A stretch of DNA of 64,000 nt from Candidatus Ryanbacteria bacterium RIFCSPLOWO2_12_FULL_44_26 (GCA_001821765.1 MHOA01000001.1:1580-65579), one strand, 5' to 3'; positions 1 through 12,789 are shown, counted from the first letter of the stretch. Made by a program: numbers and translations. Notes: generated by a model not told the origin, from the sequence alone.

Positions 1-1277
1 CGCATTACAGTGAAGGATTTCAGACAGAGTTTTTCAAATTACTGCAAACGCTTGAGAATCCGGCGGTTCCCCGCGAGGAGCGCGATACCATAGTGGTAGA
101 TATGGTGAACCGGCTGATTCGATATGGCCATCAGAACAAAGCATCGGATATACACATTGAGCCGCTCGAAGATAACATAGGTGTGCGGATCAGGGTTGAC
201 GGTGTATTGCATGATGTGCTGACCATTCCAAAAAATCTGGGAGATCTGATCCTCTCTAGGATTAAAATATTAGCTAAGATGCGGACGGACGAACGCAGAG
301 CGGCGCAAGACGGAAGGTTTCGGTTTACAACAACACAGGAGACTGTTGATGTAAGAGTTTCGGTTGTTCCTATTACGCATGGTGAAAATGTCGTCATGAG
401 ACTTCTTTCGGCAAGGAACCGTCAATTCACAATCAGTGATTTGGGACTTTCTGAAAGCGATTTAAACAAGATAACACGCGCAATTGAACAGCCTCACGGC
501 ATGGTACTTGTGACAGGCCCCACCGGCAGCGGAAAAACAACGACTGTGTACGCTATTATGAAGATTATTAATAAAAGAAGTGTTCATATATCAACCATTG
601 AGGATCCTGTTGAATATGATATTGAGGGGATCAGCCAGATCCAGGTAAATCCGAAAACAAACCTTACCTTTGCAAGTGGGCTCCGGGCTATTGTGCGTCA
701 AGACCCCGATATTATTTTAGTTGGTGAAGTGCGAGATAAGGAAACAGCCGGTATTGCGATCAATTCTGCTATGACAGGACACCTCGTGCTTTCTACGCTT
801 CATGCCAATGATGCGGCAACGACGCTGCCCAGACTTTTGGATATGGACATTGAGCCGTTTTTAGTGGCTTCAACAGTAAATGTTGTTGTTGCACAGCGAT
901 TGGTAAGAAAAATTTGTGTTCGGTGCCGCGAATCGTATGCGTTAACACAGGAAGAAAAAAGAGCCATTCATGGCGAGCTGGCTGTTGAGACAGCTTTTAC
1001 AAAGAAGGGCATAAAGAAGCTTGATACACTGCGGCTGTATAGAGGAGCAGGATGCAAGGTATGCGGAAACACAGGGTATGCCGGACGTGTTGGCGTTTTT
1101 GAGGTTATGGAAATGAATAGCATGATTAAAAGTCTTATCATGACGCAATCATCAAGCGACACGATCCAACAAGCGGCGGTAAAAAGCGGCATGACAACAC
1201 TGCTTGAAGGCAGTATTGAAAAGATATTAAACGGCACCACAACACTTGAGGAAGTGTTAAGGGTAACAAAAGAGTGA
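1..1277 (+). CDS. pilB: Type IV pilus/T2SS assembly ATPase, GspE/PilB family (5' end lies upstream of window)
   Basis: Frame is open from nt 3 to the first ATG of the ORF (no stop), so the gene continues upstream; Walker A GPTGSGKTTT, Asp/His boxes, C-terminal CxxC...CxxC tetracysteine motif. Confidence 0.85.
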   Translation, partial: HYSEGFQTEFFKLLQTLENPAVPREERDTIVVDMVNRLIRYGHQNKASDIHIEPLEDNIGVRIRVDGVLHDVLTIPKNLGDLILSRIKILAKMRTDERRAAQDGRFRFTTTQETVDVRVSVVPITHGENVVMRLLSARNRQFTISDLGLSESDLNKITRAIEQPHGMVLVTGPTGSGKTTTVYAIMKIINKRSVHISTIEDPVEYDIEGISQIQVNPKTNLTFASGLRAIVRQDPDIILVGEVRDKETAGIAINSAMTGHLVLSTLHANDAATTLPRLLDMDIEPFLVASTVNVVVAQRLVRKICVRCRESYALTQEEKRAIHGELAVETAFTKKGIKKLDTLRLYRGAGCKVCGNTGYAGRVGVFEVMEMNSMIKSLIMTQSSSDTIQQAAVKSGMTTLLEGSIEKILNGTTTLEEVLRVTKE

Positions 1278-1278
1278 T

Positions 1279-1995
1279 ATGGCAAAGCATTCAAAACTAA
1301 AAGACAGAAAACATATTATTTCTGAAATTACCTCCATCATTTCTCATCAGTTAAAATCCCCTCTTTCCGGCATTAAGTCGTCTTTAGAGCTTATCCTTGC
1401 AGGTGAAGTGGGGCCTCTTGTAAAACAACAGCGCGAGTACTTAACCTTAACACTGAATCAGACGGAAAAGTTAATTACGTTAGTAAAGAATTTGCTTGAC
1501 GTCTCCCGAATTGATGAAAAGCGAATGGAGCTTACTATCAAATATGCCGATCTCGTCACGATAGTAACGAATGTCATAGACGAGCTTTTGCCATTGGCCC
1601 AGGCAAAAAACTCCGCAATTTCGTTTCGGGCGGGGGATCATATTCCCCACATTCATATCGATCCGATTAAAATCCACCAGGTTGTTTACAATATCATTGA
1701 TAACGCAATCCATTATAATAAAGGGAAGGGGTCAATTGATGTTCAGCTTGTCAAGAAGGGGAAGTATATTCTTTTTTCCTGCCGTGACCAAGGTATCGGC
1801 ATCTCCAAGAAAGAGGCTTCCAAAATTTTTACAAAGTATTTTCGCAGCAAACAGGTGATGGATATATTAACTGACGGGACGGGCCTGGGGTTATTTATCT
1901 CAAAAGCGATTATTAAAAAAAGCGGAGGAAATATATGGTTTGAGAGTAAATTAAACAAGGGGACGGTGTTTTATTTCACGCTACCGGTAAAGTAA
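1279..1995 (+). CDS. Sensor-less histidine kinase (HisKA + HATPase_c), embedded in pilus operon
   Basis: H-box SHQLKSPLSG, N/G boxes (NAIHYN, GTGLGLFISK); no TM or sensor domain; 1-nt gap after pilB stop. Confidence 0.75.
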   Translation: MAKHSKLKDRKHIISEITSIISHQLKSPLSGIKSSLELILAGEVGPLVKQQREYLTLTLNQTEKLITLVKNLLDVSRIDEKRMELTIKYADLVTIVTNVIDELLPLAQAKNSAISFRAGDHIPHIHIDPIKIHQVVYNIIDNAIHYNKGKGSIDVQLVKKGKYILFSCRDQGIGISKKEASKIFTKYFRSKQVMDILTDGTGLGLFISKAIIKKSGGNIWFESKLNKGTVFYFTLPVK

Positions 1996-1999
1996 TCAT

Positions 2000-2401
2000 A
2001 TGATGGCAAATACAGCAAAAAAAATTCTCATCATTGAAGACGATAAGTTTTTAATGAAATTATACAGCGATAAATTAAGGAGAGAAGGATTTGATGTGGC
2101 TATGTCTATTACCGGTGAGGAGGGGCTTTTACGGGCCCCTTCTTATGAGCCGGATTTGATATTTTTAGATATTGTCCTGCCGCGTGAAAACGGATTTGAC
2201 GTATTAAGCAAGTTAAAATTAGATCCGGCAACGAAACACATCCCAGTGATTATTCTCACTAACTTAGGACGGGAAAAAGACGTCAAGACTGGCATAGAAC
2301 TCGGAGCTGCGGATTATTTGATAAAAACAGATTTTTCAATAACCAAACTTGGCGAGGTTGCAAGAAAACATCTTGTAAACAAGCAACGGCGAAAGACATG
2401 A
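2000..2401 (+). CDS. Stand-alone response regulator receiver (CheY-like REC only)
   Basis: ILIIEDD...DLIFLDIVLP...KT motifs of REC domain; 133 aa, no output domain; overlaps pilC start. Confidence 0.8.
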   Translation: MMANTAKKILIIEDDKFLMKLYSDKLRREGFDVAMSITGEEGLLRAPSYEPDLIFLDIVLPRENGFDVLSKLKLDPATKHIPVIILTNLGREKDVKTGIELGAADYLIKTDFSITKLGEVARKHLVNKQRRKT

Positions 2402-3501
2402 CCGAGGAAAAAATACATAACAGCCGGCGGCAGCGTATCCTTCAATGGGACATTCCTATTGGCTCCGTGAGCCTTGAGCAAAAAGCACTTTTTGTAAAAC
2501 ATTTAGCAGTAATGATGAAATCCGGACTTACCATATCCGAGATATTGCATGTGGAAGAAGAAACAACAAGCGGGAGACTCAGGGGAGCGCTCCGAAAAGT
2601 AAGAAAATCAGTAGAGGCGGGGCATTCTCTTTCCGATGCTTTTAAACTGTTCCCAAAAATTTTTCCCCAGCTGCTTGTAAGCGCTGTATATACCGGCGAA
2701 TCTTCCGGCACGCTTTCAGACAATTTAGAACATGTTGCTTTGCAGCTGCAGAAGGAGAAAGAGTTGGTATCAAAAATTCGCGGAGCCATGCTGTATCCGG
2801 TAATCGTGCTTGCCGCGGCAGTTATTTTAGGGCTTGGGCTTGCGTTATTTGTGCTGCCAAAAATTACCACCATATTTAGCGGTTTGGATATAACACTACC
2901 TTTCACAACACGGATGCTTATCGCGTTTTCAAACTTTATGGAAAGCTATGGGTTGGAGTTTGTGGTTGCTTCGGTGGCGTTCGTTTTTTTTATCATATGG
3001 GTTTTGCGGTCGCGCATGATGCAGCCGATCACTCACTGGGTCCTGCTTCGGATGCCGGTTGTACAGCGTATCAGCAAAGGAGCGAACGCAGCGCGTTTCT
3101 GCAGGACGCTCGGAACATTGATCGGAAGCGGCGTTACGATTGAAGAATCGCTGGATATTATCGGAAAAACGATGAGTAATTATCATTACCGAAGATCCAT
3201 CGGCTCCGTCAATAAACGCGTGATCGGCGGAGCGCGGCTTTCGGTGAGTTTGGAGGATTTTCCCGGGCTTTATCCGAGGATTATTGTCAGCATGATACGC
3301 GTAGGAGAAGAATCGGGAAGACTTGATGAAGTGTGTTCATATCTCGGAGAGTTTTTTGAAGAAGAAGTGGATGCCGCGACGAAATCGCTTTCAGCAGTCA
3401 TAGAGCCCGTGCTTCTTATTATCATCGGCCTCGTTGTCGGGTTTCTCGCACTTTCCGTGATAACGCCAATCTATGAGATTACGGGAAGCATTGGGCGTTA
3501 A
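2398..3501 (+). CDS. pilC: Type IV pilus platform protein PilC/GspF family
   Basis: Two T2SS-F repeats with three TM segments, 367 aa, start overlaps upstream stop (ATGA). Confidence 0.85.
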   Translation: MTEEKIHNSRRQRILQWDIPIGSVSLEQKALFVKHLAVMMKSGLTISEILHVEEETTSGRLRGALRKVRKSVEAGHSLSDAFKLFPKIFPQLLVSAVYTGESSGTLSDNLEHVALQLQKEKELVSKIRGAMLYPVIVLAAAVILGLGLALFVLPKITTIFSGLDITLPFTTRMLIAFSNFMESYGLEFVVASVAFVFFIIWVLRSRMMQPITHWVLLRMPVVQRISKGANAARFCRTLGTLIGSGVTIEESLDIIGKTMSNYHYRRSIGSVNKRVIGGARLSVSLEDFPGLYPRIIVSMIRVGEESGRLDEVCSYLGEFFEEEVDAATKSLSAVIEPVLLIIIGLVVGFLALSVITPIYEITGSIGR

Positions 3502-3534
3502 GTGATAGTACGCCTTCCGCACATTTTTTGACTT

Positions 3535-3975
3535 ATGAGTAAAGGATTTTCCCTTTCAGAATTAATTATTGTCATAGGTATCTTGCTTATTGTCGGCGTG
3601 ACGGTGATCCCGGTTTATTCCAATATATTCGTCCTAAGTCAGCTTGACGAAAGCGCTGTTGCGGTATTGCAGGCATTACGCACCGCAAAAACGTATGCTA
3701 TATACAGAAAAAACAACGCCGCGTACGGAGTAAAATTTATCTCGCCTACCCTTACAATGTATCAGGGATTGTCATATCTAAGTAGAGATTCAACCAAGGA
3801 CCGCGTGATAGAGCTCGAGGATGTTATAGCGGTTACCACCACGTTCGCGGATGACGACGTGCATTTTGAAACGACCTCCGGGATGACGAGCGGCGGGATT
3901 ATCACCCTCCTGCATCAATCCGGCGCTTCACAAACGATTTCCGTAAGCGCGCAGGGTATCGCGCAAATTGAATAA
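3535..3975 (+). CDS. Pseudopilin/minor pilin-like protein (degenerate prepilin N-terminus)
   Basis: N-terminal KGFSLSELIIVIGILLIVG hydrophobic helix resembling class III signal, 146 aa. Confidence 0.55.
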   Translation: MSKGFSLSELIIVIGILLIVGVTVIPVYSNIFVLSQLDESAVAVLQALRTAKTYAIYRKNNAAYGVKFISPTLTMYQGLSYLSRDSTKDRVIELEDVIAVTTTFADDDVHFETTSGMTSGGIITLLHQSGASQTISVSAQGIAQIE

Positions 3976-4006
3976 CCGATAGGCGGTAGCCGGCGAGTGC
4001 GTAAAC

Positions 4007-7003
4007 ATGTGGAAGTATACGTCGGACAAAGGACAGAGTTTGCTGGAAGTGATTGTTGCCATGGCGATTTTTTCTATGATCGCGGTAGTGATGGTTTCCA
4101 TGGCAAGTGGAAGTTTTGTTTCTCTTATAAAAAGCAGAGAACATACTGAAGCGGCGGCGTTGGCGCAAGAAGGCATGGAGGCTGTCCGTTCCATCCGGGA
4201 TGGCGCGTGGAATGAATTGGAGTTTGATCAAAGCGGCGTTTCCGCAAACAGTGGGGAGTGGGCATTTATGGGCGAGGGAAGTGCTGAAACCATCGGGCAA
4301 TATACACGCACTATAACCTTTGACGATGTTTGCCGCGATGGAGTGGGGAATGTGGAAGATCCTTGCGCTGGTTCGCCTCCGGATGTGCACAGCAAAAAAG
4401 TGACGGCGCGTGTGGATTGGACAACCGGTTCAGACATTCCCAACACGGTAAAACGCACCGCATATATTACCAACTGGGATTCTCGTGACTGGACGCAGAC
4501 CGACTGGTCGGGCGGAGCAGGGCAGGCAATTTGGTCTGATCCGAGCAGGTTTGACAGCAGTGTAAACATTGATGTCAGCACTTTTGGAGAAGTGCAATTG
4601 ACAGAGGTGGAAAGCACATGGGTAAAAGGCGGAGGAGAAGAGGCGCTTGACGACACAGATGCTGATTTCGGCGCAGGTGTTTTGAACGACACGGTTATCG
4701 TAGGTAGCGGCGTTCCGGCAAGCGTTGTGCTTGATCAGGAGCTTGCTTGGTCGGGACATGCGGACAGCGGATCGGTTACCACGCGATCACTCCATGATTT
4801 ATACGCGCTTTCCGCGACAGATATTTGGGCTGTTGGCGATGCCGGAACGGTACTGCATTACGCGGGTTCGGGATGGGTTGTTGTTTCTTCGCCCACGACA
4901 GCGGCATTACATAGTATTTTTATGATATCGCCGTCAAACGGCTGGGCGGTGGGGGATAATGGGACGATCATCCGCTGGAATGGTGTAAACTGGTCATCGG
5001 TTGTGTCTCCGGTCAGTACCCATCTCTATAGCATCTTTATGGTTTCGGCAAACGATGGCTGGGCTGTTGGGAGAACTGGAAAGATTTTGCGTTGGAACGG
5101 TGTTTCTTGGAGCGAGTCTAGAGATACCGGAAGCCATACATGGAATGCTCTCTCCATGATTTCTTCCAATAACGGATGGCTTGCGGGAACAAGCGGCAAG
5201 ATCTATCGCTATAACGGTGTGGATTGGACAGAGTTTCAGGATACCGGCAATCAAACATGGAACTCTCTCTTTATGGTTTCGTTTACTAACGGCTGGGTTA
5301 TTGGGAATGGGGGAAATATCAGGCGTTTTAACGGTATTAGATGGGTGAGCGTATCTTCTCCTGTGGGGACGAATCTCCAGAGCGTTTTTATGGTCAATGC
5401 GAATGATGGTTGGGCGGTTGGAAATGCCGGTGAAATTCTTCGGTGGGATGGCATCTCTTGGCAACGATTCCATAATGTCGGATCCATCCAATTAAATTCA
5501 GTGTTTATGGCCTCGGCGTTTGAGGGATGGACTGTTGGCGCCGGAGGTACTATATTCCGCTACAAAGGATCAGGCACCTTTCATTCAAGAATTTTTGATA
5601 GCGGTGATGCCGGCACTGTCTGGAATGCGGTTTATTGGACAGAATCCTTACCCGTCGGATCCGATATCACCATTGCGACAAGGACCGGAAATACCCCTAT
5701 ACCAGACGGAACATGGTCGGCATTTAGCGGTGAACTTACTGACAGCGTTGTTTCCGATATTACTTCTCCAAACGGGCGCTACATTCAATACAGAGCTACT
5801 TTCACGCGCGGTACTGCGGGCGGCGAAACGCCGCAGCTCGCCGATATTACCATCGTGTACAATGCTCCGACGTCAAGGAATTTAAATGATATTTATCTAA
5901 TTTCTCAAAATGATGTTTGGGCAGTTGGAGATAACGGAACAATTATCCATTATGGAGGATCTGTATGGCTTCCTGTTGTTTCTCCCACGTCCCAGAATTT
6001 GCGCGGCGTGTTTTTTGTTGATCCAGGTGAAGGATGGGCGGTTGGTGATAACGGCACCATTATTCATTATGAAAGCGGTTCGTGGTTTTCTGTTCCTTCG
6101 CCAACAGCAAGAGATTTGCACGATATATATATGGTAAACGCTAGTGATGGATGGATTGTCGGGAATGTTGGTGAAATGCTCCGATGGAACGGTTCGCAGT
6201 GGTTGTCAGTTTCATCACCGACCACGAGCCGGCTATTAAGTGTTTATATGCTTTCAGCAAGTGAAGGATGGGCAGCGGGAGAAAATGGCGGGATTCTTTT
6301 CTGGAACGGTGTAAGCTGGATTGTGTTTCAAGGTACCGGAAGCCATATATGGGAATCTCTCTACACGGTTTCTTCCAGTGACGGCTGGCTGGTCGGTTCG
6401 GGCGGATGGATCTATCGTTTTAACGGTTCGGCATGGACAGCATTTGATAACAAAATAGTTTCTCCGCTCAATGCTGTTTTTATGACAGCGGCAGATCGCG
6501 GTTGGATTGTCGGAGCTGGCGGAAATATATTTAGATGGAATGGCGCTTTATGGGAAAGCGAATTATCTTCTACAGACAGGATATTAAACGCCGTCTCAAT
6601 GTTTTCTGCTGTAGAGGGATGGGCGGTAGGGGACAGAGGAACGATACTCCATTATACAAGAAACAGCACCTACGCCCCATTTGGCGTTCTTGTCTCGTCC
6701 GCGTTCCCTCTTGGCGATCCCTCTCCTCTACAGGTGATAGAATGGGACGAATCGGTGCCATTATGTTCACCATCCTGCGGGATGCTTTTTCAGATAAGAG
6801 CAGCTCCTGATAACGCCGGTACTCCGGGATTGTGGACAGCATGGTATGGTGTGACCGGTCCCGCGACGGTTTTTATAGAAACTAATGGTTCGCTTATTCC
6901 CAAAGAACTGAATGGTAATGAGTGGGCGCAATACAGGACGATACTGATCGGTGATGGATTAAACACTCCGATACTTTATGAGGTAAGAGTACATTACAAG
7001 TAA
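4007..7003 (+). CDS. Giant pilin-like protein: prepilin-type N-terminal helix fused to two 7-bladed beta-propellers (Ycf48/BNR-like repeats)
   Basis: N-term GQSLLEVIVAMAIF pilin-like helix; 14 tandem ~42-aa repeats of the form (D/E)GWAVGxxGTIxxWNGxxW in two blocks separated by a linker. Confidence 0.6.
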   Translation: MWKYTSDKGQSLLEVIVAMAIFSMIAVVMVSMASGSFVSLIKSREHTEAAALAQEGMEAVRSIRDGAWNELEFDQSGVSANSGEWAFMGEGSAETIGQYTRTITFDDVCRDGVGNVEDPCAGSPPDVHSKKVTARVDWTTGSDIPNTVKRTAYITNWDSRDWTQTDWSGGAGQAIWSDPSRFDSSVNIDVSTFGEVQLTEVESTWVKGGGEEALDDTDADFGAGVLNDTVIVGSGVPASVVLDQELAWSGHADSGSVTTRSLHDLYALSATDIWAVGDAGTVLHYAGSGWVVVSSPTTAALHSIFMISPSNGWAVGDNGTIIRWNGVNWSSVVSPVSTHLYSIFMVSANDGWAVGRTGKILRWNGVSWSESRDTGSHTWNALSMISSNNGWLAGTSGKIYRYNGVDWTEFQDTGNQTWNSLFMVSFTNGWVIGNGGNIRRFNGIRWVSVSSPVGTNLQSVFMVNANDGWAVGNAGEILRWDGISWQRFHNVGSIQLNSVFMASAFEGWTVGAGGTIFRYKGSGTFHSRIFDSGDAGTVWNAVYWTESLPVGSDITIATRTGNTPIPDGTWSAFSGELTDSVVSDITSPNGRYIQYRATFTRGTAGGETPQLADITIVYNAPTSRNLNDIYLISQNDVWAVGDNGTIIHYGGSVWLPVVSPTSQNLRGVFFVDPGEGWAVGDNGTIIHYESGSWFSVPSPTARDLHDIYMVNASDGWIVGNVGEMLRWNGSQWLSVSSPTTSRLLSVYMLSASEGWAAGENGGILFWNGVSWIVFQGTGSHIWESLYTVSSSDGWLVGSGGWIYRFNGSAWTAFDNKIVSPLNAVFMTAADRGWIVGAGGNIFRWNGALWESELSSTDRILNAVSMFSAVEGWAVGDRGTILHYTRNSTYAPFGVLVSSAFPLGDPSPLQVIEWDESVPLCSPSCGMLFQIRAAPDNAGTPGLWTAWYGVTGPATVFIETNGSLIPKELNGNEWAQYRTILIGDGLNTPILYEVRVHYK

Positions 7004-7007
7004 CTCC

Positions 7008-7586
7008 ATGATGAGTTTTAAGATGCCGCTTCAAGGAGTCAAAGGTGAAAGGTTCCCATTCTTGCCGGGCGAAGCGGTACGGGAAAAAATCAAAAATCAG
7101 CATGGCTTTACGCTGATTGAGATGATTATATACATCGCCATCATTGGCTTGGTGGTGAGCGGTTTTCTGTTTTTTAGTGTCAGTATCGGATCTTCCGGCG
7201 CAAAGACGCGGGTGGCGTCTGAAGTGCAGGAGAATGTCCGCACGGCCCTTGAGTTGATGGGCAAAAAGATACGTGCCGCCGAGAGTGTCGTTCAACCCGC
7301 GAAGGGAGCCTCCGGTTCATTGTTGGAGCTCAATATGCCTCCGGGAGTTCCCGATGTTGTCGTTCAGGTGGTGAACGGGGTGCTGTTGCTGGATGATACG
7401 GTAGATCAAATTGCTGTTACTACCGATGAGGTGCGCGTGGAAGATTTGCAATTTGTGAATATAGGAAAGAGTGGTGAACGCGATAGTATTCGTATTTTTA
7501 TAACCATTGCGTTTAACAATACTGGAAACGATGTGTTGCATACATTCTCACAGAGTGTTGAAACGGCAGTTGGTATTCGCAGATAA
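7008..7586 (+). CDS. Type IV (pseudo)pilin with canonical GFTLIEM class III signal; true start may be internal (long leader)
   Basis: Motif HGFTLIEMIIYIAIIGLVV; an in-frame alternative TTG start (LPGEAV...) would give a 15-aa leader. Confidence 0.65.
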   Translation: MMSFKMPLQGVKGERFPFLPGEAVREKIKNQHGFTLIEMIIYIAIIGLVVSGFLFFSVSIGSSGAKTRVASEVQENVRTALELMGKKIRAAESVVQPAKGASGSLLELNMPPGVPDVVVQVVNGVLLLDDTVDQIAVTTDEVRVEDLQFVNIGKSGERDSIRIFITIAFNNTGNDVLHTFSQSVETAVGIRR

Positions 7587-7587
7587 T

Positions 7588-8013
7588 ATGAACCCAAAAA
7601 AGATAAAAAGAAAAAATAGGAAAGAGGGTATAGCGGCTCTTCTCGTCGTTGTGGTGGTAAGCGCTGTTGTGCTGACTATGGCTTTTGGGGCCGCTATGAC
7701 CGGTATTGGCGAGCTCGATATGGGTTTTACCGTCAGTAAGGGAATGACAGCGTTTGCTTTTGCTGACGGTTGCATGGAAGAGGCGCTTCGAAGATTACGG
7801 ATTGACAAGAGTTGGCCATCGGCGTTGCTCTCCGTTGATGGCGGATCGTGTATAATGTTTAATGTTGACAATGCTGATATAAACCCGCCTAATGACAGAA
7901 GGACGATTTTGGTTGTTGGCAGTGACGGCACGTATTTTTCTTTCATAGAGGCGGTGGTTGACGTTTTAGATATCGGCAACGTGGTTACGATACAGACGTG
8001 GAAGGAAATATAA
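7588..8013 (+). CDS. Putative minor pilin/pseudopilin-like protein
   Basis: Internal Met (MNPKKIKRKNRKEG) directly after upstream stop; basic N-term then hydrophobic helix IAALLVVVVVSAVVLT; two Cys later. Confidence 0.45.
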   Translation: MNPKKIKRKNRKEGIAALLVVVVVSAVVLTMAFGAAMTGIGELDMGFTVSKGMTAFAFADGCMEEALRRLRIDKSWPSALLSVDGGSCIMFNVDNADINPPNDRRTILVVGSDGTYFSFIEAVVDVLDIGNVVTIQTWKEI

Positions 8014-8038
8014 ACATATTTTTCATCCGTGTTTCATT

Positions 8039-10048
8039 ATGTTTGTTTTTAGTAAGTCCTCGGTTGGAGTAGACATCGCCGACGGCAGCATCGAGGTGGT
8101 AGAGCTTTCAAGGCATCTCGGTCGCTTTTTGGTAAGTCGAAGAAACCGCGTGACGCTTCCTGCCGGTATCGTTGAGCGCGGAAGAATTGTGAAAAAGGTG
8201 GAGCTGGCGGGAGCGGTTCATGAAGCATTTCAAACGGCCAGCCCTTCGCCAATCACCAAAAAAGACATCATTTTCGGACTTCCGGAAGGCCATGTATACA
8301 CGCATGTTTTTAGATTTCCCTTGCCGCTTTCTAAAATAACCCGCGCTGTTGTTGTAAAAGAGACTCGTTGTTCAATTCCTCTTTCGGAAGATGATGTTGT
8401 TTTTGACTATATCATTCGCCGGTCAACGCCAGCAGAAACAGAAATACTCATCGTTGCATCGAGCAGGGCATTTATGACTGAGTGGAATCATTTTTTTGCT
8501 GAAAACGGTTTTACTGTCAAAACGTTTGACATCGAAACACTGGCAACGTTTCGCGGACTTTTCAAAGGGAATCCCGCTTCCCCTGTTTGTGTTGTTGATA
8601 TGGGGGCGGCAACATCCCTGATTGCTGTTTTTGACGCATCCGGCCTTATCTATGCGCACGCTGTTCCCATTGCCGGCAACGCAATAACTGACCAGATCGC
8701 AGCGTCTCTGAAGCTTTCTATCAAAGAGGCGGAGAAACAAAAAAAGGAAAAAGGATTAAGCGACAGCAAATCAAAGCTGTTTCTTGTTATAGTGAAAGCG
8801 CTTGAGCCGTTGCTTCAAAAGATAAAAATCTCTTTAGGATATATTGAGGGAAAAACCGGAAAGCCTGTTGCCCGCGTGATTTTCGTGGGTATGTCTTCAA
8901 AGATGAAGGGACTCTTGGATTATTTCGGGTCTAATCTTGAAGTATCTGTTGAAGAAGCTCCTTCCAGCATCGGCGGCAGTCATGTAGGAGCTTATATTGA
9001 AGCTCTGGGACTTGCGCTACGGGCATGGAAAGATACGGATCCAAAACTCACGTTGCCGGAGGTCCAGCGAACATCCATCATTGCTGCCACAAAAAAGTCT
9101 TTCGTCAACAAATTCTTTTCATTCAAAAGACCGGTTGCTCCCCAAAAACCTCCTACGCACATCGCTGAAGATATCAGGTTTCTAGAGCGCAAAAAAGATC
9201 CAATCCAGACCCAGCACAAAGGACTTTTTTGGTTATTAATAGTACTTGTTGTTTTTGTTATCGCTGGGGGCGGGCTGTGGTGGTTTTTAAACCGCCAACA
9301 GGCGCCGTCTCCTGTTGCAAGCGTAAAGACGGATATTCCGAATTTGAACATTCAGTTATTTTCCCTTACATTTCCTGTTGCAATCCATGAAAGTGAATAT
9401 GGCGAAGGACGTGTCAGCGGACGTGTTTTGAAAGAAATATACAGCACCATTGAAGATTATGCTGAAGCAGTTGCGCGTTCATGGAGTGTTGTTCGCGAAG
9501 AGCTCCAGCCCGGAGAAGCGCTCTTTTTTGAACCTATCAATAAACTGAACGAGAGCGCGGGGTCTATATCTCCATTCACATTGGAATGGCTGGCGTATTC
9601 TTTAGATGAATTGGATACTTTGATTCGTAAGGAAGTAGACAGGACAAACGAACTCCATATTCCATATGAGGTCGGACCAGTACATGGCATACGCGCATAT
9701 AAAACGGAAAACCCAGGTATTGTTATATTCGAGGTTTCAGTAACGCTTACACTGAATGAGTTAATTGCGGGTTTAGGCGAGAAAATAGAGGTTTATGGGG
9801 GTATAGCGGAAACAAAAAACGAACAAGCGCTGGATAACGAAGAGAAACAGTTTGTGCTCATAAAAAAAACAGAGATGGGATGGTTGAATGCGAGAACAGG
9901 TCCCGCAACGACCTACACAATTTTGAAAAAAGTGTATCCGGGTGAGCGTTATCCGTTGCTTGAAGAAAGACAAGACTGGGTTCGCATTGAGGTTGCTGAA
10001 GGGCAGGATGCATGGGTTGCCGTAAGATACATTGAGTTGTTGGAATGA
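8039..10048 (+). CDS. PilM-PilN fusion protein with C-terminal bacterial SH3 (SH3b) domain
   Basis: N-term actin-like PilM fold signature (GVDIADGSIEVVEL), central TM helix (LFWLLIVLVVFVIAGGGLWWFL) as in PilN, C-term GWLNARTGPATTYTILKKVYPGERYPLLEERQDWVRIEV SH3b motif. Confidence 0.7.
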   Translation: MFVFSKSSVGVDIADGSIEVVELSRHLGRFLVSRRNRVTLPAGIVERGRIVKKVELAGAVHEAFQTASPSPITKKDIIFGLPEGHVYTHVFRFPLPLSKITRAVVVKETRCSIPLSEDDVVFDYIIRRSTPAETEILIVASSRAFMTEWNHFFAENGFTVKTFDIETLATFRGLFKGNPASPVCVVDMGAATSLIAVFDASGLIYAHAVPIAGNAITDQIAASLKLSIKEAEKQKKEKGLSDSKSKLFLVIVKALEPLLQKIKISLGYIEGKTGKPVARVIFVGMSSKMKGLLDYFGSNLEVSVEEAPSSIGGSHVGAYIEALGLALRAWKDTDPKLTLPEVQRTSIIAATKKSFVNKFFSFKRPVAPQKPPTHIAEDIRFLERKKDPIQTQHKGLFWLLIVLVVFVIAGGGLWWFLNRQQAPSPVASVKTDIPNLNIQLFSLTFPVAIHESEYGEGRVSGRVLKEIYSTIEDYAEAVARSWSVVREELQPGEALFFEPINKLNESAGSISPFTLEWLAYSLDELDTLIRKEVDRTNELHIPYEVGPVHGIRAYKTENPGIVIFEVSVTLTLNELIAGLGEKIEVYGGIAETKNEQALDNEEKQFVLIKKTEMGWLNARTGPATTYTILKKVYPGERYPLLEERQDWVRIEVAEGQDAWVAVRYIELLE

Positions 10049-10178
10049 CTGACATGCATCGCGAGCGAAGAAGTCATCTGTGGATAACTTTTTCCTATTC
10101 AGAAAGGGCACTCTCACTTATAATGTAGATAAAGTATTGACGTCGAATTTTTAGCTCTTGAATTTGTTTGTAGTTCTT

Positions 10179-10691
10179 ATGCAAAAACAATCAGGATTTA
10201 CGTTGATTGAGCTTTTAATAGTAATTTCATTAATCGTTTTGCTCGCGTCAGTAGTATTCGTGGCGCTGAATCCTTTACAGCGCTTTCAGGACGCAAGAAA
10301 TGCCACGCGCATCACTGATGTAACATCAGTCGTGACCGCCCTTAAAGTGGATCAGGTTGATAACGGAGGAGCGTATCTTACAACAGTTGGCGTTTTAACC
10401 CCGGGAAGTACCTATATGATTTATGACAGCGTAGCTGGATCGGATTGTGCCGTAGCAATTCCGGCAGATTGCAACGTAAATTGTGCGGCTGTGACAAGCA
10501 CCACCCATAGTGTGGATTTAAGAGGACTGGTCACCGAGGGGTATCTGGGCAAAATGCCGATAAGTCCGAATGCGGTAGGAAGTTGGTCCGCCTCAAGAAC
10601 GGGATATGCCTTGACGTTAAACGCGAACAATTCCGTTTCAGTTGAAGCATGTGATGCGGAGGGCGGGGCGACGATTTTAGTAACGCAATAA
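10179..10691 (+). CDS. pilA: Type IV major pilin (PilA-like)
   Basis: Canonical MQKQSGFTLIELLIVISLIVLLASVV prepilin signal; C-terminal Cys pairs; followed by strong terminator. Confidence 0.8.
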   Translation: MQKQSGFTLIELLIVISLIVLLASVVFVALNPLQRFQDARNATRITDVTSVVTALKVDQVDNGGAYLTTVGVLTPGSTYMIYDSVAGSDCAVAIPADCNVNCAAVTSTTHSVDLRGLVTEGYLGKMPISPNAVGSWSASRTGYALTLNANNSVSVEACDAEGGATILVTQ

Positions 10692-10707
10692 TTCTTAGTA
10701 TAAAATT

Positions 10708-10746
10708 TTAAACAAACCCTGCATGTATGTGGGGTTTGTTTTTATA
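10708..10746 (+). terminator. Rho-independent terminator after pilin gene
   Basis: AACAAACCC / GGGTTTGTT stem followed by TTTT. Confidence 0.75.
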
Positions 10747-10977
10747 AAAAACTGTTTTTGTGAAAGGGTTGCGGTTGCTGGTGAATAGAAGGTTGTTTGT
10801 GACATCTGTCCAACGATGAGAGATAAAACATTTTACATGTGGGAGACAAGTTTATGCGCGAATATAAAAAAGTTTCCCCTATTATCCACCGTAATAAAAA
10901 AGCCCTGTCAGGCCCTTTGGATGGATTTTTGCTCAAACAGGGTATCAACGGCCCATGCGATTTGTTGCTTGCCGTTT

Positions 10978-11006
10978 CGGTGTCTTTGTTCTACAATATA
11001 TCCAGA
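10978..11006 (+). promoter_or_regulatory. Sigma70-like promoter (TTGCCG-17-TACAAT)
   Basis: Read from sequence; 14 nt upstream of GGAG RBS and ATG at 11020. Confidence 0.45.
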
Positions 11007-11019
11007 AAGGAGAAAAACC

Positions 11020-11223
11020 ATGCAACAGCGGGCATGTTTTGTGTGCGGAACTCCTATAAATAGCTGTTTTGGTTATGTGCTTGCCGGTGATTTCATTCAA
11101 GCACTGAATGGTCTGCTGGAATGGACAAAAGTTCGGGAGTTATGTGGGAAGTGTGTGGAAAAATATGAGTGGGAAAAAAGCGCAGGAAATATGAAAGGGA
11201 AAAAAGTGCAGGAGAAAGGATAG
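11020..11223 (+). CDS. Small Cys-rich zinc-ribbon-like protein (67 aa)
   Basis: GGAG RBS; CFVCG...CGKC two CxxC pairs; terminator hairpin directly after stop. Confidence 0.4.
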   Translation: MQQRACFVCGTPINSCFGYVLAGDFIQALNGLLEWTKVRELCGKCVEKYEWEKSAGNMKGKKVQEKG

Positions 11224-11253
11224 GTCATCTGTAAAAAAGATGACCTGTTTTTA
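11223..11253 (+). terminator. Rho-independent terminator
   Basis: GGTCATCT-loop-AGATGACC then TGTTTTT. Confidence 0.6.
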
Positions 11254-11398
11254 TATAAACCGTAAACCGAACTTTCTCTGTTAAAAAAAGGATCTCATTA
11301 AAATTTGTACACTTTCCTACGATCATAGTTTTTTGTGCAGATTTTTTAGCTGCACTTATATTCACCGGATGGTTTCGGCTTTTATACCAGACGTTTAC

Positions 11399-11611
11399 CT
11401 ATCCCTCTTTATTGTCTTCGTGCCAGTTTTTATGCCGTTCGCAACACCATGGATGCCAGCAACGTCCGCGCTTTTTTCCAAACAGCAGTGAAATTCCAAA
11501 AGCTATTAGAGCAATTGGCCAGAAAAAATCCCAGAAATCGCCAGGCATATATCCCAACGCCTGCAAAAGCCACAGAGCACCTATAATGATAAATAACAAT
11601 CCAGCAAACAT
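11399..11611 (-). CDS. Small membrane protein with LiaF/PspC-like transmembrane N-terminal region and Cys/His-rich tail
   Basis: LLFIIIGALWLLQALGYMPGDFWDFFWPIALIAFGISLLF then CWHPWCCERHKNWH. Confidence 0.45.
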   Translation of the reverse strand: MFAGLLFIIIGALWLLQALGYMPGDFWDFFWPIALIAFGISLLFGKKRGRCWHPWCCERHKNWHEDNKEG

Positions 11612-11776
11612 TATACTTATTGTATGTTCTTTTAATGGTTTTCGTCAACAAAAAGCGTGTAAGCTGTGTTGGTTATTCCATTATGCGGACAACTTTGATT
11701 GCGCGCTCGTTTCGTGATATAAGGGCAATGGAGTAATGTCTTTTGATGAAGAGAAAAACATGGAAGGAAAAAATCA

Positions 11777-12055
11777 ATGGAAATGATTCTTTCAGTGCCG
11801 ACAGAAAAGATTGAGCCGAGATATCCTGTCGAGGAACTCCCTACGCACTTTAATAAGAAGGTTGACTTGCCGTTTGTTCCGCATATTGGAGTGGAGTTTA
11901 TTTTAAGCTCCGGATATATCAAGGAAGTTGAGGGTATAGTGACCAAGCTGGAGTACTGGCTTGAAAGCGATGAACTGTATGTAACGATTGATGTGAATAA
12001 AGATAACTTTGAACCTTGTTACTTCTGGGAGACTGGTTGGAAGGATGTTGGTTAG
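11777..12055 (+). CDS. Hypothetical protein (92 aa)
   Basis: ORF with upstream purine-rich region, no recognisable domain. Confidence 0.35.
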   Translation: MEMILSVPTEKIEPRYPVEELPTHFNKKVDLPFVPHIGVEFILSSGYIKEVEGIVTKLEYWLESDELYVTIDVNKDNFEPCYFWETGWKDVG

Positions 12056-12292
12056 TACTTTCTCTCCAGCCCGTTTACTGGTTATAAGACTGGGGCGGGC
12101 TTTTTTATATATCATTACTCTTGTTTTTTGTTTTAAACCATAAATATATTGACAAATTCAACATAAAATTGATCAAAGAGCTGATCCCGTTAGCAATTCA
12201 TTTATGACTTTCTTTTCGTGATGTCTGCAAGGGAAACCGACTCCGTTTCCGTTTATTTCCATAGATACATAATAATAGTGGATTTTTTGCGG

Positions 12293-12321
12293 TTGACATC
12301 CTCGCCGTTCTCGTGTATAAA
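12293..12321 (+). promoter_or_regulatory. Sigma70-like promoter TTGACA-17-TATAAA
   Basis: Consensus -35, 17-nt spacer, followed by AGGAG RBS and ATG at 12348. Confidence 0.6.
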
Positions 12322-12347
12322 GGAGTGGAACTTTTAAGGAGAAGGCA

Positions 12348-12665
12348 ATGAGAGGAAAAGACAATGCGCTTTTGGAAGCGCTTGTGGCCAAGCACGGTCC
12401 GGATTCTGTTTTCGGCAAGATGCTTTTAGAGGAAAGAGAAGTGGATAGAAGAATGTCAAAGTGGCACCGATCACCTCAATGCTTCATCCCGTGGATTTTA
12501 TGTGGAATGACTTTCGTAGTGGCCCTGTTTCTTCTTTCATTTTTCGTGAGTACCGCAATACTTATCTTCATCGGTAACTTTCTTGCCATGGCATGGTTGT
12601 TGCAGCGAGAGGACGATATGTTCCAAAAAGCCTCAAAGGAGGTTTCCAGGGCACAACTTCACTGA
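12348..12665 (+). CDS. Small membrane protein (105 aa), hypothetical
   Basis: Strong promoter+RBS; two predicted TM helices; terminator downstream. Confidence 0.55.
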   Translation: MRGKDNALLEALVAKHGPDSVFGKMLLEEREVDRRMSKWHRSPQCFIPWILCGMTFVVALFLLSFFVSTAILIFIGNFLAMAWLLQREDDMFQKASKEVSRAQLH

Positions 12666-12745
12666 ACGAGAGCCGATTTCAGTAAAAGTCCTAAGCACGA
12701 CTATAAAAGGCTTTTATATATTTGACCGTCACCTTTTTGGCAAAC

Positions 12746-12775
12746 AAAAAGCGAGGGGTTGACTCGCTTTTTGTA
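12746..12775 (+). terminator. Rho-independent terminator
   Basis: AAAAAGCGAG-gggttgac-CTCGCTTTTT. Confidence 0.6.
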
Positions 12776-12789
12776 CTGTGATACGCTTG

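What the first reader, a model, noticed from the sequence alone, without database searches (positions are those of the whole stretch)
4007..7003. 998-aa pilin-like protein carrying two seven-bladed beta-propellers
A class-III-signal-like N-terminal helix (GQSLLEVIVAMAIF) is fused to 14 tandem Ycf48/BNR-like blades with the pattern (D/E)GWAVGxxGTIxxWNGxxW. This is far larger than any canonical pilin.

The gene sits between a pseudopilin and minor pilins inside the T4P operon. That suggests a pilus-tip adhesin, plausibly host-attachment machinery of an episymbiotic CPR cell.
Basis: partly seen in the sequence, partly recalled or inferred. Interest (0 to 1): 0.6.

Follow-up and report, generated by a model that had tools for sequence, protein, structure and literature searches.

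The report
Giant double-propeller type IV minor pilin
This gene encodes a very large pilus subunit from an ultra-small (Patescibacteria/CPR) bacterium that carries two propeller-shaped binding domains; it is most likely the sticky tip of the pilus, and it is one version of a widespread subunit that swaps its binding module between relatives.

Summary
ORF 4007-7003 (+) encodes 998 aa with a prepilin signal (MWKYTSDKG|QSLLE; Gly-1 and Glu+5; Pfam N_methyl above cutoff). AlphaFold2 (pLDDT 86.6) gives a 55-residue alpha1 helix plus a beta-sheet head. Then come two units, each a 7-bladed Ycf48-like propeller followed by a ~100-aa beta-sandwich. All 14 blades have an exact 39-aa period, and the two units are 39% identical (E 2e-82).

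The gene lies in a tight same-strand operon: pilB, HK, RR, pilC, H-like pilin, TARGET, J-like pilin, K-like pilin lacking Glu5, pilM fusion, major pilin. Eighty related genome loci, mostly titled Patescibacteria, keep this order; pilC is upstream in 78 of 80.

Family members carry 1, 2 or 3 propeller units. Most slot-mates instead carry ConA-like lectins, LVIVD or other propellers, or unknown domains, between the same pilin module and the same C-terminal sandwich.

Best explanation: a modular minor pilin of the tip complex that presents a ligand-binding (adhesin) module. Tip position, ligand and host attachment are inferred, not shown.

The kind is known: modular pilins (Raynaud 2021) and the TM7x PilX2 propeller pilin. 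This is a new member, with a notable cargo-slot architecture.

The parts
93..1277 (+). pilB-type assembly ATPase (T2SSE); its N-terminus probably runs off the window start
   Evidence: Pfam T2SSE 417.6 bits. A homologue lies upstream in 73 of 80 related loci.
1279..1995 (+). small histidine kinase (HisKA + HATPase_c) inside the pilus operon
   Evidence: Pfam. Present in 32 of 80 related loci.
2000..2401 (+). stand-alone response-regulator receiver domain
   Evidence: Pfam Response_reg 75.3 bits. Present in 47 of 80 related loci.
2398..3501 (+). pilC-type platform protein (T2SSF)
   Evidence: Pfam T2SSF 184 bits. Upstream in 78 of 80 related loci.
3535..3975 (+). 146-aa minor pilin, GspH/ComGD-like (MSKG|FSLSE)
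   Evidence: TIGR02532 above cutoff; weak XpsH/ComGE/ComGD hits. Present in 55 of 80 loci.
4007..7003 (+). TARGET: 998-aa modular minor pilin (whole ORF including stop)
4007..4033 (+). 9-residue leader peptide MWKYTSDKG; predicted prepilin-peptidase cleavage after Gly9
   Evidence: Read directly from the sequence. G9 is at least 90% conserved and E14 (+5) is invariant. Cleavage itself is inferred.
4034..4510 (+). pilin (carrier) module, aa 10-168: alpha1 helix aa 11-66, 4-5-stranded beta-sheet aa 75-155, conserved Cys109/Cys120 pair
   Evidence: AF2 pLDDT above 90 over aa 12-155. Conservation. This module is found in 80 of 80 loci and in 809 50%-identity clusters at E<=1e-10.
4472..4525 (+). 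family-wide motif NWxSxxWxQTDWSGGxGQ (aa 156-173) at the pilin/cargo junction; function unknown
   Evidence: W157, Q164, T165 and W167 are nearly invariant. The motif falls in a low-pLDDT segment.
4592..4756 (+). small beta domain / linker, aa 196-250
   Evidence: AF2 strands 196-242. The 'link' HMM is found, wholly or in part, in 53 of 80 loci.
4784..5584 (+). propeller 1: seven 39-aa Ycf48-like blades, aa 260-526
5585..5872 (+). beta-sandwich 1, aa 527-622 (RYIQYR...TPQLADITIVY)
   Evidence: AF2 strands 539-618. Homologous to sandwich 2. No Pfam or PDB sequence match.
5876..6676 (+). propeller 2: seven 39-aa blades, aa 624-890
6677..7000 (+). C-terminal beta-sandwich 2, aa 891-998, with a Cys920/Cys924 pair; conserved at the extreme C-terminus of the family whatever the cargo
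   Evidence: The sandC HMM sits at the C-terminus in 68 of 80 slot-mates, including those without propellers. No Pfam or PDB sequence match.
7008..7586 (+). minor pilin, GspH/GspJ/HpsC-like (…NQHG|FTLIE); the gene caller on the identical contig starts it at 7023
   Evidence: Pfam N_methyl 35.4 bits; NCBIfam. Present in 45 of 80 loci.
7585..8013 (+). K-like minor pilin (…RKEG|IAALLVVV) lacking Glu+5; the start at 7585 overlaps the previous stop
   Evidence: 0 of 45 homologues have Glu+5, whereas the other three pilins keep G|FTLIE. Homologue in 44 of 80 loci.
8039..10048 (+). PilM-like actin-fold protein fused to a TM segment, an extra region and an SH3_3 domain (669 aa)
   Evidence: Pfam PilM_2 92.5 bits, SH3_3 38.3 bits.
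10158..10691 (+). probable major pilin (…KQSG|FTLIELLIVISLIV), GspG/PilA-like
   Evidence: TIGR02532 27.5 bits, GspG 26.9 bits. The N-terminus is nearly identical across loci.

Best explanation
The gene encodes a modular type IV minor pilin.

Processing and assembly (inferred from the sequence signature). A prepilin peptidase removes the 9-residue leader after Gly9. The hydrophobic alpha1 helix, with Glu+5, anchors the protein in the membrane. It then inserts into the pilus core together with three other minor pilins encoded beside it: an H-like pilin, a J-like pilin and a K-like pilin that lacks Glu5. By analogy with GspH-I-J-K and FimU-PilV-W-X, these four form the complex that primes assembly on the PilC platform, driven by PilB, and so end up at the distal tip of a filament made of the 177-aa major pilin.

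What the target contributes. Its small pilin head is the carrier. Two [7-bladed Ycf48-like propeller + beta-sandwich] units are grafted onto it and project from the tip as ligand-binding surfaces. They most probably recognise a glycan or surface polymer on another cell.

Family picture. Across Patescibacteria the same carrier and the same C-terminal sandwich are kept, while the module between them varies. It can be 1-3 propeller units, ConA-like lectins, LVIVD or other propellers, or unknown domains. This operon slot is therefore a swappable specificity module.

Shown: the pilin signature, the fold, the domain architecture, the operon and its conservation, and the cargo variability.
Inferred: cleavage, incorporation into the filament, tip position, binding and the nature of the ligand.
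For: Pilin signature:
- N_methyl and TIGR02532 score above cutoff.
- Glu+5 is invariant and Gly-1 at least 90% conserved in 42 relatives.
- AF2 gives a 55-residue alpha1 helix plus a beta-sheet head at pLDDT above 90.
- A profile of the N-terminal module hits type IV pilins first in the PDB, though weakly (E 0.0025-0.02) and only over the signal and alpha1N.

Operon and synteny:
- All genes from 93 to 10691 lie on one strand, with gaps of -2 to 110 nt, and include pilB, pilC, pilM and four other pilin-like genes.
- The same gene order is kept in 80 related loci; pilC is present in 78 and pilB in 73.
- The K-like neighbour lacks Glu+5 in 0 of 45 homologues. From established knowledge this is the hallmark of GspK/PilX-type tip subunits.

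Cargo:
- Two closed 7-bladed propellers are predicted.
- Ycf48 matches at TM 0.74. The best whole-chain matches are double-propeller + sandwich glycan sensors (BT4663, BT4673, BT3049) and PorZ.
- Within the propellers the invariant and near-invariant residues are almost all Gly/Trp core positions, with no conserved acidic, His, Lys or Arg residue. This fits a binding scaffold with variable surfaces rather than an enzyme.

Slot-mates and family:
- Relatives in the same slot carry Laminin_G_3 (10 of 41), LVIVD (8), Beta_propel (6), pentaxin, and a SigLec-like domain.
- Propeller-unit copy number is 1, 2 or 3.
- The closest carrier modules (55-61% identity) carry other cargos.

Precedents:
- Modular pilins are adhesins in S. 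sanguinis, and the architecture N_methyl + Ycf48-like is listed once in that paper's Dataset S1 (PMC8179133).
- In TM7x, the propeller-bearing minor pilin PilX2 is needed for normal host binding but not for filament extrusion (PMC11623550).
Against: - No prepilin peptidase or pilT gene was found in the 64-kb window (Pfam scans of the larger ORFs). A crude A24 motif search of the window and the +/-10 kb of the 80 loci also found nothing. Processing therefore cannot be tied to a nearby enzyme.
- The +1 residue is Gln, not the usual Phe or Met.
- Foldseek of the N-terminal module against the PDB gave no significant match. The best pilin hit was 6qvf at E 0.29. The pilin head fold therefore rests on the AF2 topology alone.
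- pTM is only 0.50, so the arrangement of the domains relative to one another is unknown.
- No ligand, binding site or localisation was tested or could be tested.
- The lifestyle and host of this organism are unknown.
Confidence: 0.62

Rival explanations
1. It is a membrane-anchored surface receptor rather than a filament subunit. The class III signal is used only for export and anchoring, as in the archaeal sugar-binding proteins that carry class III signals. The propellers would then sit on the cell surface as a sensor or capture device and never enter a pilus.
For: The best whole-chain fold matches are periplasmic sensor domains of Bacteroides hybrid two-component systems. A histidine kinase and a response regulator are encoded in the same operon. 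A ~105-kDa subunit is awkward to assemble into a thin filament. No evidence of filament incorporation exists.
Against: The gene occupies a fixed position among H-, J- and K-like minor pilins between pilC and pilM in 80 loci. Glu+5, which from established knowledge is needed for subunit-subunit contacts in the filament, is invariant. Large modular pilins and the ~115-kDa PilY1 are known to be displayed on pili (PMC8179133). The operon's HK lacks an obvious sensor domain and is absent from more than half of the related loci.
Confidence: 0.15
2. The cargo is an enzyme presented on the pilus, not an adhesin. It would be a glycoside hydrolase or lyase of the BNR/double-propeller type, like GH74 xyloglucanases or sialidases, that attacks the host cell wall.
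For: The blades are Ycf48/BNR-related. From my own knowledge, GH74 enzymes are also built from two 7-bladed propellers. The window encodes several glycan-active enzymes: two GH130 genes and a DUF4015.
Against: There is no Pfam or NCBIfam hit to any glycoside-hydrolase family. There is no Asp-box in the blades. Conserved propeller positions are almost only Gly and Trp, with no conserved acidic pair. No GH74 or sialidase chain appears in the top 50 fold matches. The alternative cargos in the same slot are lectin-type domains.
Confidence: 0.08
3. It is mainly an assembly-priming or plug subunit. The bulky domains would act as a stopper that sets pilus number or length, or prevents full retraction, as proposed for PilY1 and the minor pilins in priming. 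No specific ligand would be involved.
For: It belongs to a four-member minor-pilin set of the kind that primes assembly in T4aP and T2SS (established knowledge). The carrier and the C-terminal sandwich are conserved even in cargo-less 300-aa forms such as L063. The core role of the slot therefore does not need the propellers.
Against: A structural role alone does not explain the turnover of cargo types, many of them lectin-like, or the 1-3 copy variation on closely related carriers. In TM7x, loss of the propeller pilin PilX2 did not stop filament extrusion but did reduce host binding.
Confidence: 0.1
4. It is not a pilin at all: an ordinary secreted or TM-anchored propeller protein whose N-terminus resembles a prepilin signal by chance.
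For: The HMM scores are only just above cutoff (23.6 vs 21.2; 16.5 vs 16.3). The +1 residue is Gln. Foldseek found no solved pilin at a significant E-value.
Against: Gly-1 and Glu+5 are conserved across hundreds of relatives. A 55-residue alpha1 helix plus a beta-sheet head is predicted. Synteny inside T4P operons is strict. Sources name homologues as prepilin-type, PilV or PulG.
Confidence: 0.03

Closest known systems
Modular type IV pilins: Streptococcus sanguinis PilB (pilin + vWA) and PilC (pilin + ConA-like lectin); Raynaud et al. 2021, PMC8179133
   Same: A class III signal and a small pilin module act as carrier for a bulky functional module joined by a linker. It is a minor pilin encoded in the T4P locus and is proposed to be tip-exposed and adhesive. 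That paper's Dataset S1 lists the architecture IPR012902-IPR028203 (N_methyl + Ycf48-like) once, and many of its examples are CPR proteins.
   Different: The cargo is two Ycf48-like propellers, each followed by a sandwich domain, so the protein is about twice the size of PilB. The cargo is inserted between the pilin module and a family-conserved C-terminal sandwich, rather than simply appended. Unit copy number varies from 1 to 3. There is no experimental binding data.
Nanosynbacter lyticus TM7x PilX2 (and PilX1); PMC11623550
   Same: A Patescibacteria minor pilin bearing a seven-bladed beta-propeller and encoded with other pilins. Its deletion lowers host binding from about 10.6% to 4.6% without abolishing the filaments. 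PilX1 is described there as a pilin plus a jelly-roll-like domain unknown to CD-Search, which resembles the cargo-less form of the present family (pilin module + C-terminal sandwich).
   Different: The PilX2 propeller is RCC1-type and single. Here the propellers are Ycf48/BNR-type and doubled, with no RCC1 Pfam hit.
PilY1 / PilC tip adhesins of Pseudomonas, Neisseria and Myxococcus
   Same: A protein of roughly 100 kDa or more with a seven-bladed-type beta-propeller, displayed at the pilus tip with four core minor pilins. It has roles in adhesion and priming.
   Different: PilY1 is not a pilin. It has an ordinary signal peptide and docks non-covalently on the minor pilins. Here the propellers are covalently fused to a pilin. 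There is no Pfam hit to the PilY1/Neisseria_PilC domain.
Ycf48/Hcf136 photosystem II assembly factor (PF14870; PDB 2xbg, 5ojr)
   Same: It is the closest sequence and fold relative of each propeller: Pfam 76.5 bits, PDB E 2e-7, TM 0.74 and 19% identity.
   Different: The NCBIfam equivalog score is 71.6 against a cutoff of 326. The context is not photosynthetic. The propeller is fused to a pilin and duplicated. The Asp-box-like DGGxTW is replaced by (W/Y)NGxxW. It is a structural relative, not a functional orthologue.
Periplasmic sensor domains of Bacteroides hybrid two-component systems (BT4663, PDB 4a2l/4a2m; BT4673; BT3049) and the T9SS protein PorZ (5m11)
   Same: These have two consecutive seven-bladed propellers followed by a beta-sandwich and are the top whole-chain Foldseek matches (E 6e-18 to 2e-14). 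From my own knowledge they bind glycans.
   Different: Identity is 9-11% and whole-chain TM only about 0.3, so the relative domain placement differs or is unknown. There is no Reg_prop or Y_Y_Y Pfam hit. Here each propeller has its own sandwich. The N-terminal anchor and the genomic context are different.
Large minor pilins GspK, CofB/TcpB and ComZ
   Same: These are minor pilins with extra structural domains located at the filament tip.
   Different: Their extra domains are unrelated (alpha-domain, beta-repeat/sandwich, beta-solenoid). In this operon the Glu5-less K-like subunit is a separate small gene (7585-8013), not the cargo carrier.

Membership tests
Type IV pilin (class III signal peptide; PF07963 / TIGR02532 / IPR012902) | Short, positively charged leader ending in Gly(-1) | tested here: met
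   MWKYTSDKG| is a 9-residue leader. Gly9 is at least 90% conserved in 42 relatives, usually preceded by K or R.
Type IV pilin (class III signal peptide; PF07963 / TIGR02532 / IPR012902) | Glu at +5 followed by ~20 hydrophobic residues | tested here: met
   The sequence reads QSLLE14 VIVAMAIFSMIAVVMV. E14 is invariant in alignments A4 and A5.
Type IV pilin (class III signal peptide; PF07963 / TIGR02532 / IPR012902) | Family HMM at or above the curated cutoff | tested here: met
   PF07963 scores 23.6 against 21.2, and TIGR02532 scores 16.5 against 16.3. Both margins are small.
Type IV pilin (class III signal peptide; PF07963 / TIGR02532 / IPR012902) | Extended ~50-residue alpha1 helix packed against an antiparallel beta-sheet ('lollipop' fold) | tested here: inconclusive
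Type IV pilin (class III signal peptide; PF07963 / TIGR02532 / IPR012902) | Encoded with type IV filament machinery (assembly ATPase, platform protein, other pilins) | tested here: met
   The operon is pilB...pilC-pilin-TARGET-pilin-pilin-pilM-pilin. The order is conserved in 80 loci.
Type IV pilin (class III signal peptide; PF07963 / TIGR02532 / IPR012902) | Cleavage and N-methylation by a prepilin peptidase, and incorporation into a filament | not testable with these tools
   No A24 peptidase gene was found in the window or near the related loci. The rest of the genome was not available.
Modular pilin sensu Raynaud et al. 2021 | N-terminal pilin module joined by a linker to one or more additional domains not specific to T4P biology | tested here: met
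   Pilin module aa 1-168, a low-confidence linker at 170-181, then propeller and sandwich domains. The same InterPro architecture is listed once in their Dataset S1.
Core (tip/priming) minor-pilin set GspH-I-J-K / FimU-PilV-W-X | Four adjacent minor-pilin genes, one of which (K/PilX-type) lacks Glu+5 | tested here: met
   The four genes are 3535-3975, 4007-7003, 7008-7586 and 7585-8013. The last lacks Glu+5 in 0 of 45 homologues. The individual H/I/J assignments rest on weak NCBIfam hits only, for example GspI E 6.7e-4 for the target.
Core (tip/priming) minor-pilin set GspH-I-J-K / FimU-PilV-W-X | The four proteins form a complex at the filament tip | not testable with these tools
   No multimer prediction tool was available. 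This would need AF-multimer or an experiment.
Ycf48/Hcf136 (PF14870 domain family; NCBIfam equivalog PRK13684) | Seven-bladed beta-propeller matching PF14870 above cutoff | tested here: met
   76.5 bits against 27. TM 0.74 to 5ojr.
Ycf48/Hcf136 (PF14870 domain family; NCBIfam equivalog PRK13684) | Equivalog-level similarity and a PSII-assembly context | tested here: not met
   NCBIfam scores 71.6 against a cutoff of 326. The context is a pilus operon in a Patescibacteria-type genome.
PilY1 / PilC tip adhesin (Neisseria_PilC domain) | PilY1-type C-terminal propeller domain; non-pilin with an ordinary signal peptide | tested here: not met
   There is no Pfam hit to that domain at E<=0.1, and the protein has a prepilin signal.
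TM7x PilX2-type propeller pilin | RCC1-repeat seven-bladed propeller on a minor pilin | tested here: not met
   There is no RCC1 Pfam hit. The blades are PSII_BNR-type. Direct sequence comparison with PilX2 was not possible.
BNR/Asp-box glycosidases (sialidase, GH74) | Asp-box SxDxGxTW repeats and a conserved catalytic acid pair | tested here: not met
   The only regex match (aa 532) lies outside the blades. Conserved propeller columns are almost only Gly and Trp. No GH family was hit.
Bacteroides HTCS sensor domain (Reg_prop + Y_Y_Y) | Reg_prop repeats and a Y_Y_Y domain detectable by Pfam | tested here: not met
   The fold resemblance is real, but there is no Pfam hit.

The most novel reading that the evidence does not exclude
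Across Patescibacteria, one fixed slot of the type IV pilus operon encodes a 'cassette' tip pilin. It has a conserved pilin carrier with the invariant junction motif NWxSxxWxQTDWSGGxGQ, and a conserved C-terminal sandwich. Between the two, binding modules are exchanged by recombination and duplicated 1-3 times. These modules include Ycf48-like propeller units, ConA-like lectins, LVIVD propellers and unknown folds. Under this reading the slot would be the main determinant of which host cell or surface an episymbiont can attach to, much as receptor-binding-protein swapping works in phages. The cargo type could then be used to predict host range from genomes alone.
Probability: 0.3. Interest if true: 0.7.

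Novelty: new member of a known kind. Interest (0 to 1): 0.42.

Why it matters
How ultra-small CPR/Patescibacteria cells recognise and hold on to their hosts is largely unknown, and only Saccharibacteria can be tested genetically so far. This gene gives a concrete candidate for the recognition element in the much larger uncultivated part of the phylum, a pilus-borne double propeller.

The family analysis shows that the same operon slot holds interchangeable lectin or propeller modules in hundreds of lineages: 809 50%-identity clusters share the carrier. That makes several things testable:
- express the propeller units and screen glycans or cell walls for binding;
- correlate cargo type with co-occurring hosts;
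- model the tip complex.

For pilus biology it extends the modular-pilin idea in three ways: to ~105-kDa subunits, to modules inserted between two conserved parts, and to copy-number variation of the module.

Tried and rejected
- Locus search: the search for related loci with the 38-sequence alignment A1 failed because no stretch was conserved enough. It worked with the 9 closest sequences.
- N-terminal profile: the profile of the N-terminal module against PDB sequences hit pilins first, but only weakly and only over the signal and alpha1N.
- Sandwich domains and K-like pilin: the two sandwich domains, the aa 172-261 linker region and the K-like pilin gave no Pfam hit even at E<=10. The sandwich profile gave only insignificant Ig-like PDB hits.
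- DNA repeats: TRF found no DNA-level repeat in the ORF, so recent repeat expansion is rejected.
- Promoters and terminators: promoter-like sites are at chance level (22 against 21.2 expected). The terminator-like sites were not informative for operon boundaries.
- Prepilin peptidase and pilT: Pfam scans of 30 further ORFs of the window found neither. A crude GxGDxK motif search of the window and the 80 loci found nothing. This is not a sensitive test.
- Enzyme reading: rejected as the leading explanation because there are no Asp-boxes, no GH hits and no conserved polar residues in the propellers.
- Ycf48 orthology: rejected.
- TM7x orthology: orthology to PilX1 or PilX2 could not be tested because no sequence was in reach.

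Full report
**1. The observation**

The ORF at 4007..7003 (+) is real and encodes 998 aa. Its N-terminus, MWKYTSDKG|QSLLEVIVAMAIFSMIAVVMV, matches the prokaryotic N-terminal methylation motif above the curated cutoffs. PF07963 scores 23.6 against 21.2, and TIGR02532 scores 16.5 against 16.3.

A regex and a period analysis show 14 blades with an exact 39-aa period, seven at aa 260-532 and seven at aa 624-896. Pfam PSII_BNR (Ycf48) scores 76.5 bits against a cutoff of 27, and PDB Ycf48 chains match at E 2e-7.

Each set of seven is followed by a ~100-aa beta-rich domain, and the two [propeller + domain] units align end to end at 39% identity (E 2e-82). No tandem repeat is detectable in the DNA, so the duplication is old.

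**2. Structure**

AlphaFold2 with a 38-sequence family alignment gives mean pLDDT 86.6 and pTM 0.50. The predicted elements are:

| Residues | Element |
|---|---|
| 11-66 | alpha1 helix |
| 78-164 | beta-sheet (pilin head) |
| 170-181 | low-confidence linker |
| 196-250 | small beta domain |
| 262-526 | propeller 1, 28 strands |
| 539-618 | beta-sandwich 1 |
| 626-884 | propeller 2, 28 strands |
| 892-997 | C-terminal beta-sandwich 2 |

Foldseek against the PDB puts double-propeller + sandwich proteins first: the periplasmic sensor domains of the Bacteroides hybrid two-component systems BT4663, BT4673 and BT3049. PorZ and eukaryotic tandem WD40 proteins come further down the list. The best single-domain match is Ycf48 (5ojr; TM 0.74, rmsd 3.9 A, 19% identity).

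**3. Context**

From 93 to 10691 all genes are on the + strand, with gaps of -2 to 110 nt:

| Coordinates | Gene |
|---|---|
| 93-1277 | pilB (T2SSE) |
| 1279-1995 | histidine kinase |
| 2000-2401 | receiver domain |
| 2398-3501 | pilC (T2SSF) |
| 3535-3975 | 146-aa H-like pilin |
| 4007-7003 | target |
| 7008-7586 | 192-aa pilin |
| 7585-8013 | small pilin-like gene |
| 8039-10048 | PilM fusion |
| 10158-10691 | 177-aa GspG/PilA-like pilin |

 The small gene at 7585-8013 has G|IAALLVVV and lacks Glu+5. None of its 45 homologues has Glu+5, whereas the other pilins keep G|FTLIE. From established knowledge of T2SS and T4aP, a four-gene minor-pilin set with one Glu5-less member (GspK/PilX type) is the tip and priming complex. 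The target sits in the second position of that set, and its alpha1 gives a weak GspI hit (E 6.7e-4).

No pilD or pilT is present in the window. The rest of the window holds housekeeping and sugar-metabolism genes.

**4. Relatives**

The protein database holds 1946 hits. The named ones are Patescibacteria, Uhrbacteria and similar. Some are annotated as prepilin-type N-terminal cleavage/methylation domain protein, PilV or PulG. An identical protein occurs on one ENA metagenome contig with the same neighbours.

A blade HMM shows three length classes: about 590 aa with 7 blades, about 1000 aa with 7 + 7, and about 1400 aa with 21 blades. Each propeller has its own sandwich, and nearly all members have a G|(Q/F)SxxE N-terminus.

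A scan of one genome per species found 248 relatives, of which 80 loci were kept. tblastn with the window's proteins shows the same gene order throughout. pilC is present in 78 of 80 (both exceptions are cut by contig ends) and pilB in 73 of 80. The H-like pilin is found in 55 loci, the J-like pilin in 45, the K-like pilin in 44, pilM in 46 and the major pilin in 44.

**5. What the slot holds**

Only about 19 of the 80 slot proteins have Ycf48-like blades. The others are 300-1740 aa and share two parts with the target. The N-terminal pilin module is present in 80 of 80. The C-terminal sandwich sits at the extreme C-terminus in 68 of 80, which covers nearly all complete proteins.

Between those two parts they carry other domains. 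Among the 41 scanned, Pfam finds Laminin_G_3 (ConA-like lectin) in 10, LVIVD repeats in 8, Beta_propel in 6, pentaxin or LamG in 3, DUF4082 in 2, DUF2341 in 2 and a SigLec-like domain in 1. Many have nothing Pfam recognises. A 305-aa form (L063) is just carrier plus sandwich.

An exhaustive search with aa 1-173 finds 809 50%-identity clusters at E<=1e-10. The module is almost always N-terminal, in proteins up to about 2400 aa. The closest carriers (55-61% identity) have no blades and carry LamG, DUF4082 or unknown cargo. The closest propeller-bearing relatives share only 44-52% identity in the carrier. That pattern indicates cargo exchange on a conserved scaffold. Some genomes have two such loci with different cargos, for example MHKS01 with L063 and L069.

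The most conserved sequence of the whole family is the junction motif NWxSxxWxQTDWSGGxGQ at aa 156-173. It lies in a low-confidence part of the model and has no explanation yet. The sandwich domains match no Pfam family or PDB sequence.

**6. Mechanism**

The best-supported explanation is a modular minor pilin. After leader cleavage at Gly9 (inferred), the alpha1 helix with Glu+5 assembles with the three neighbouring minor pilins into the priming complex on PilC/PilB. That complex ends at the tip of a filament of the 177-aa pilin (inferred by analogy). The two propeller + sandwich units then project as binding surfaces.

In favour of binding rather than catalysis:
- Conserved propeller positions are almost only Gly and Trp core residues, with no conserved acidic, His, Lys or Arg positions.
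- There are no Asp-boxes in the blades.
- There is no glycoside-hydrolase hit.
- The best whole-chain fold analogues are glycan sensors.
- The alternative cargos are lectin-type.

I put about 0.85 on 'type IV pilin of this operon' and about 0.6 on 'tip-displayed adhesin'.

The rivals are a membrane-anchored receptor that never enters a filament (0.15), a priming or stopper role without a ligand (0.10), a pilus-borne enzyme (0.08), and not a pilin at all (0.03).

**7. Comparison with what is known**

The kind is known. Raynaud et al. 2021 defined modular pilins from S. sanguinis PilB. They catalogued more than 1200 proteins and 264 architectures, several of them from CPR, and their Dataset S1 lists N_methyl + Ycf48-like once without comment.

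In Nanosynbacter lyticus TM7x the minor pilin PilX2 carries an RCC1-type seven-bladed propeller. Its deletion roughly halves host binding without abolishing the filaments. PilX1 is a pilin with an unclassified jelly-roll-like domain.

PilY1 is a non-pilin propeller tip adhesin.

The present protein fails the membership tests for Ycf48 orthologue, PilY1, RCC1-type PilX2, HTCS sensor and BNR glycosidase. It passes those for type IV pilin (apart from the untestable biochemical ones) and for modular pilin. Full-text searches for Ycf48 with pilin, and for CPR with minor pilin and beta-propeller, found no description of this family.

**8. Verdict**

The gene itself is a new, unusually large member of a known kind. 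What goes beyond the finding is the family picture: one operon slot, a conserved carrier plus a conserved C-terminal sandwich, and an exchangeable module with 1-3 copies in between. If this slot sets host specificity in episymbiotic Patescibacteria, it would be of real interest, but that step is inference. Interest 0.42.

Noticed in passing
window 1279-2401: A small histidine kinase (HisKA + HATPase_c, 238 aa, no obvious sensor domain) and a stand-alone receiver domain (133 aa) are inserted between pilB and pilC. A receiver homologue is present in 47 of 80 related pilus loci and the kinase in 32 of 80. This may be a dedicated pilus regulator.
   Followed up: partly
window 8039-10048: PilM is fused to a transmembrane segment, a ~250-aa region with no Pfam match and a C-terminal SH3_3 domain, 669 aa in all. 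The C-terminal part is recognisable in only 18 of 80 related loci.
   Followed up: partly
window 7585-8013: This small pilin-like gene probably starts at the ATG at 7585, overlapping the preceding stop. Its signal G|IAALLVVV lacks Glu+5, and none of 45 homologues has it. It has no Pfam hit even at E<=10. It looks like a GspK/PilX-type tip subunit that the databases do not recognise.
   Followed up: yes
window 4472-4525 (aa 156-173 of the target) and all 80 related loci: The motif NWxSxxWxQTDWSGGxGQ at the pilin/cargo junction is the most conserved stretch of the whole family; the locus-search tool chose it as a search pattern. Yet AlphaFold gives it low confidence. Its role is unexplained. It may be a docking site for the conserved C-terminal sandwich or for a partner pilin.
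   Followed up: partly
window 5585-5872 and 6677-7000; C-termini of 68 of 80 related proteins: A ~100-aa beta-sandwich domain (…SGxLxSSAFDxG…W…QYR…TPxLxEVxINY) has no Pfam family and no PDB sequence relative. It is conserved at the C-terminus whatever the cargo, and it also follows each propeller.
   Followed up: partly
window 44975-45724 (-): This is an RF1-type release factor (PKT and GGQ motifs) of only 249 aa that starts at domain 2. The first ~100 positions of the PCRF profile are missing, and the gene directly follows rpmE (45721-46005), leaving no room for an N-terminal domain.
   Followed up: partly
window 10700-13550: A stretch of about 2.8 kb just after the pilus operon has no ORF longer than 135 aa on either strand and contains several terminator-like hairpins. 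Rfam finds nothing there.
   Followed up: no
window 15280-16995: A 571-aa protein has a DUF11 repeat and Fn3-like (purple acid phosphatase N / PhoD_N) matches. It may be another surface protein.
   Followed up: no
window 32517-33662 and 56128-59182: A DUF4015 putative glycosyl hydrolase and two adjacent GH130 (beta-1,4-mannooligosaccharide phosphorylase-like) genes, one of them a 640-aa double-length form. This suggests the organism uses mannoside-type glycans.
   Followed up: no
L007, L019, L022-L025, L029, L031, L042 and others: Many related loci come from 'binchicken'/TPA MAGs whose record titles say 'uncultured Gammaproteobacteria bacterium' or 'Bdellovibrionales', and one (L059) says Nitrospirota. 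All of them have the same pilus-operon synteny as the loci titled Patescibacteria. The titles look like taxonomic mislabels or bin contamination.
   Followed up: no
L063/L069 (MHKS01), L065/L068 (PCWQ01), L057/L075 (JBAYIR01): Single genomes carry two copies of this pilus locus with different slot proteins, for example a 305-aa cargo-less form and a 636-aa form in MHKS01. This echoes the two distinct pili reported in TM7x.
   Followed up: partly
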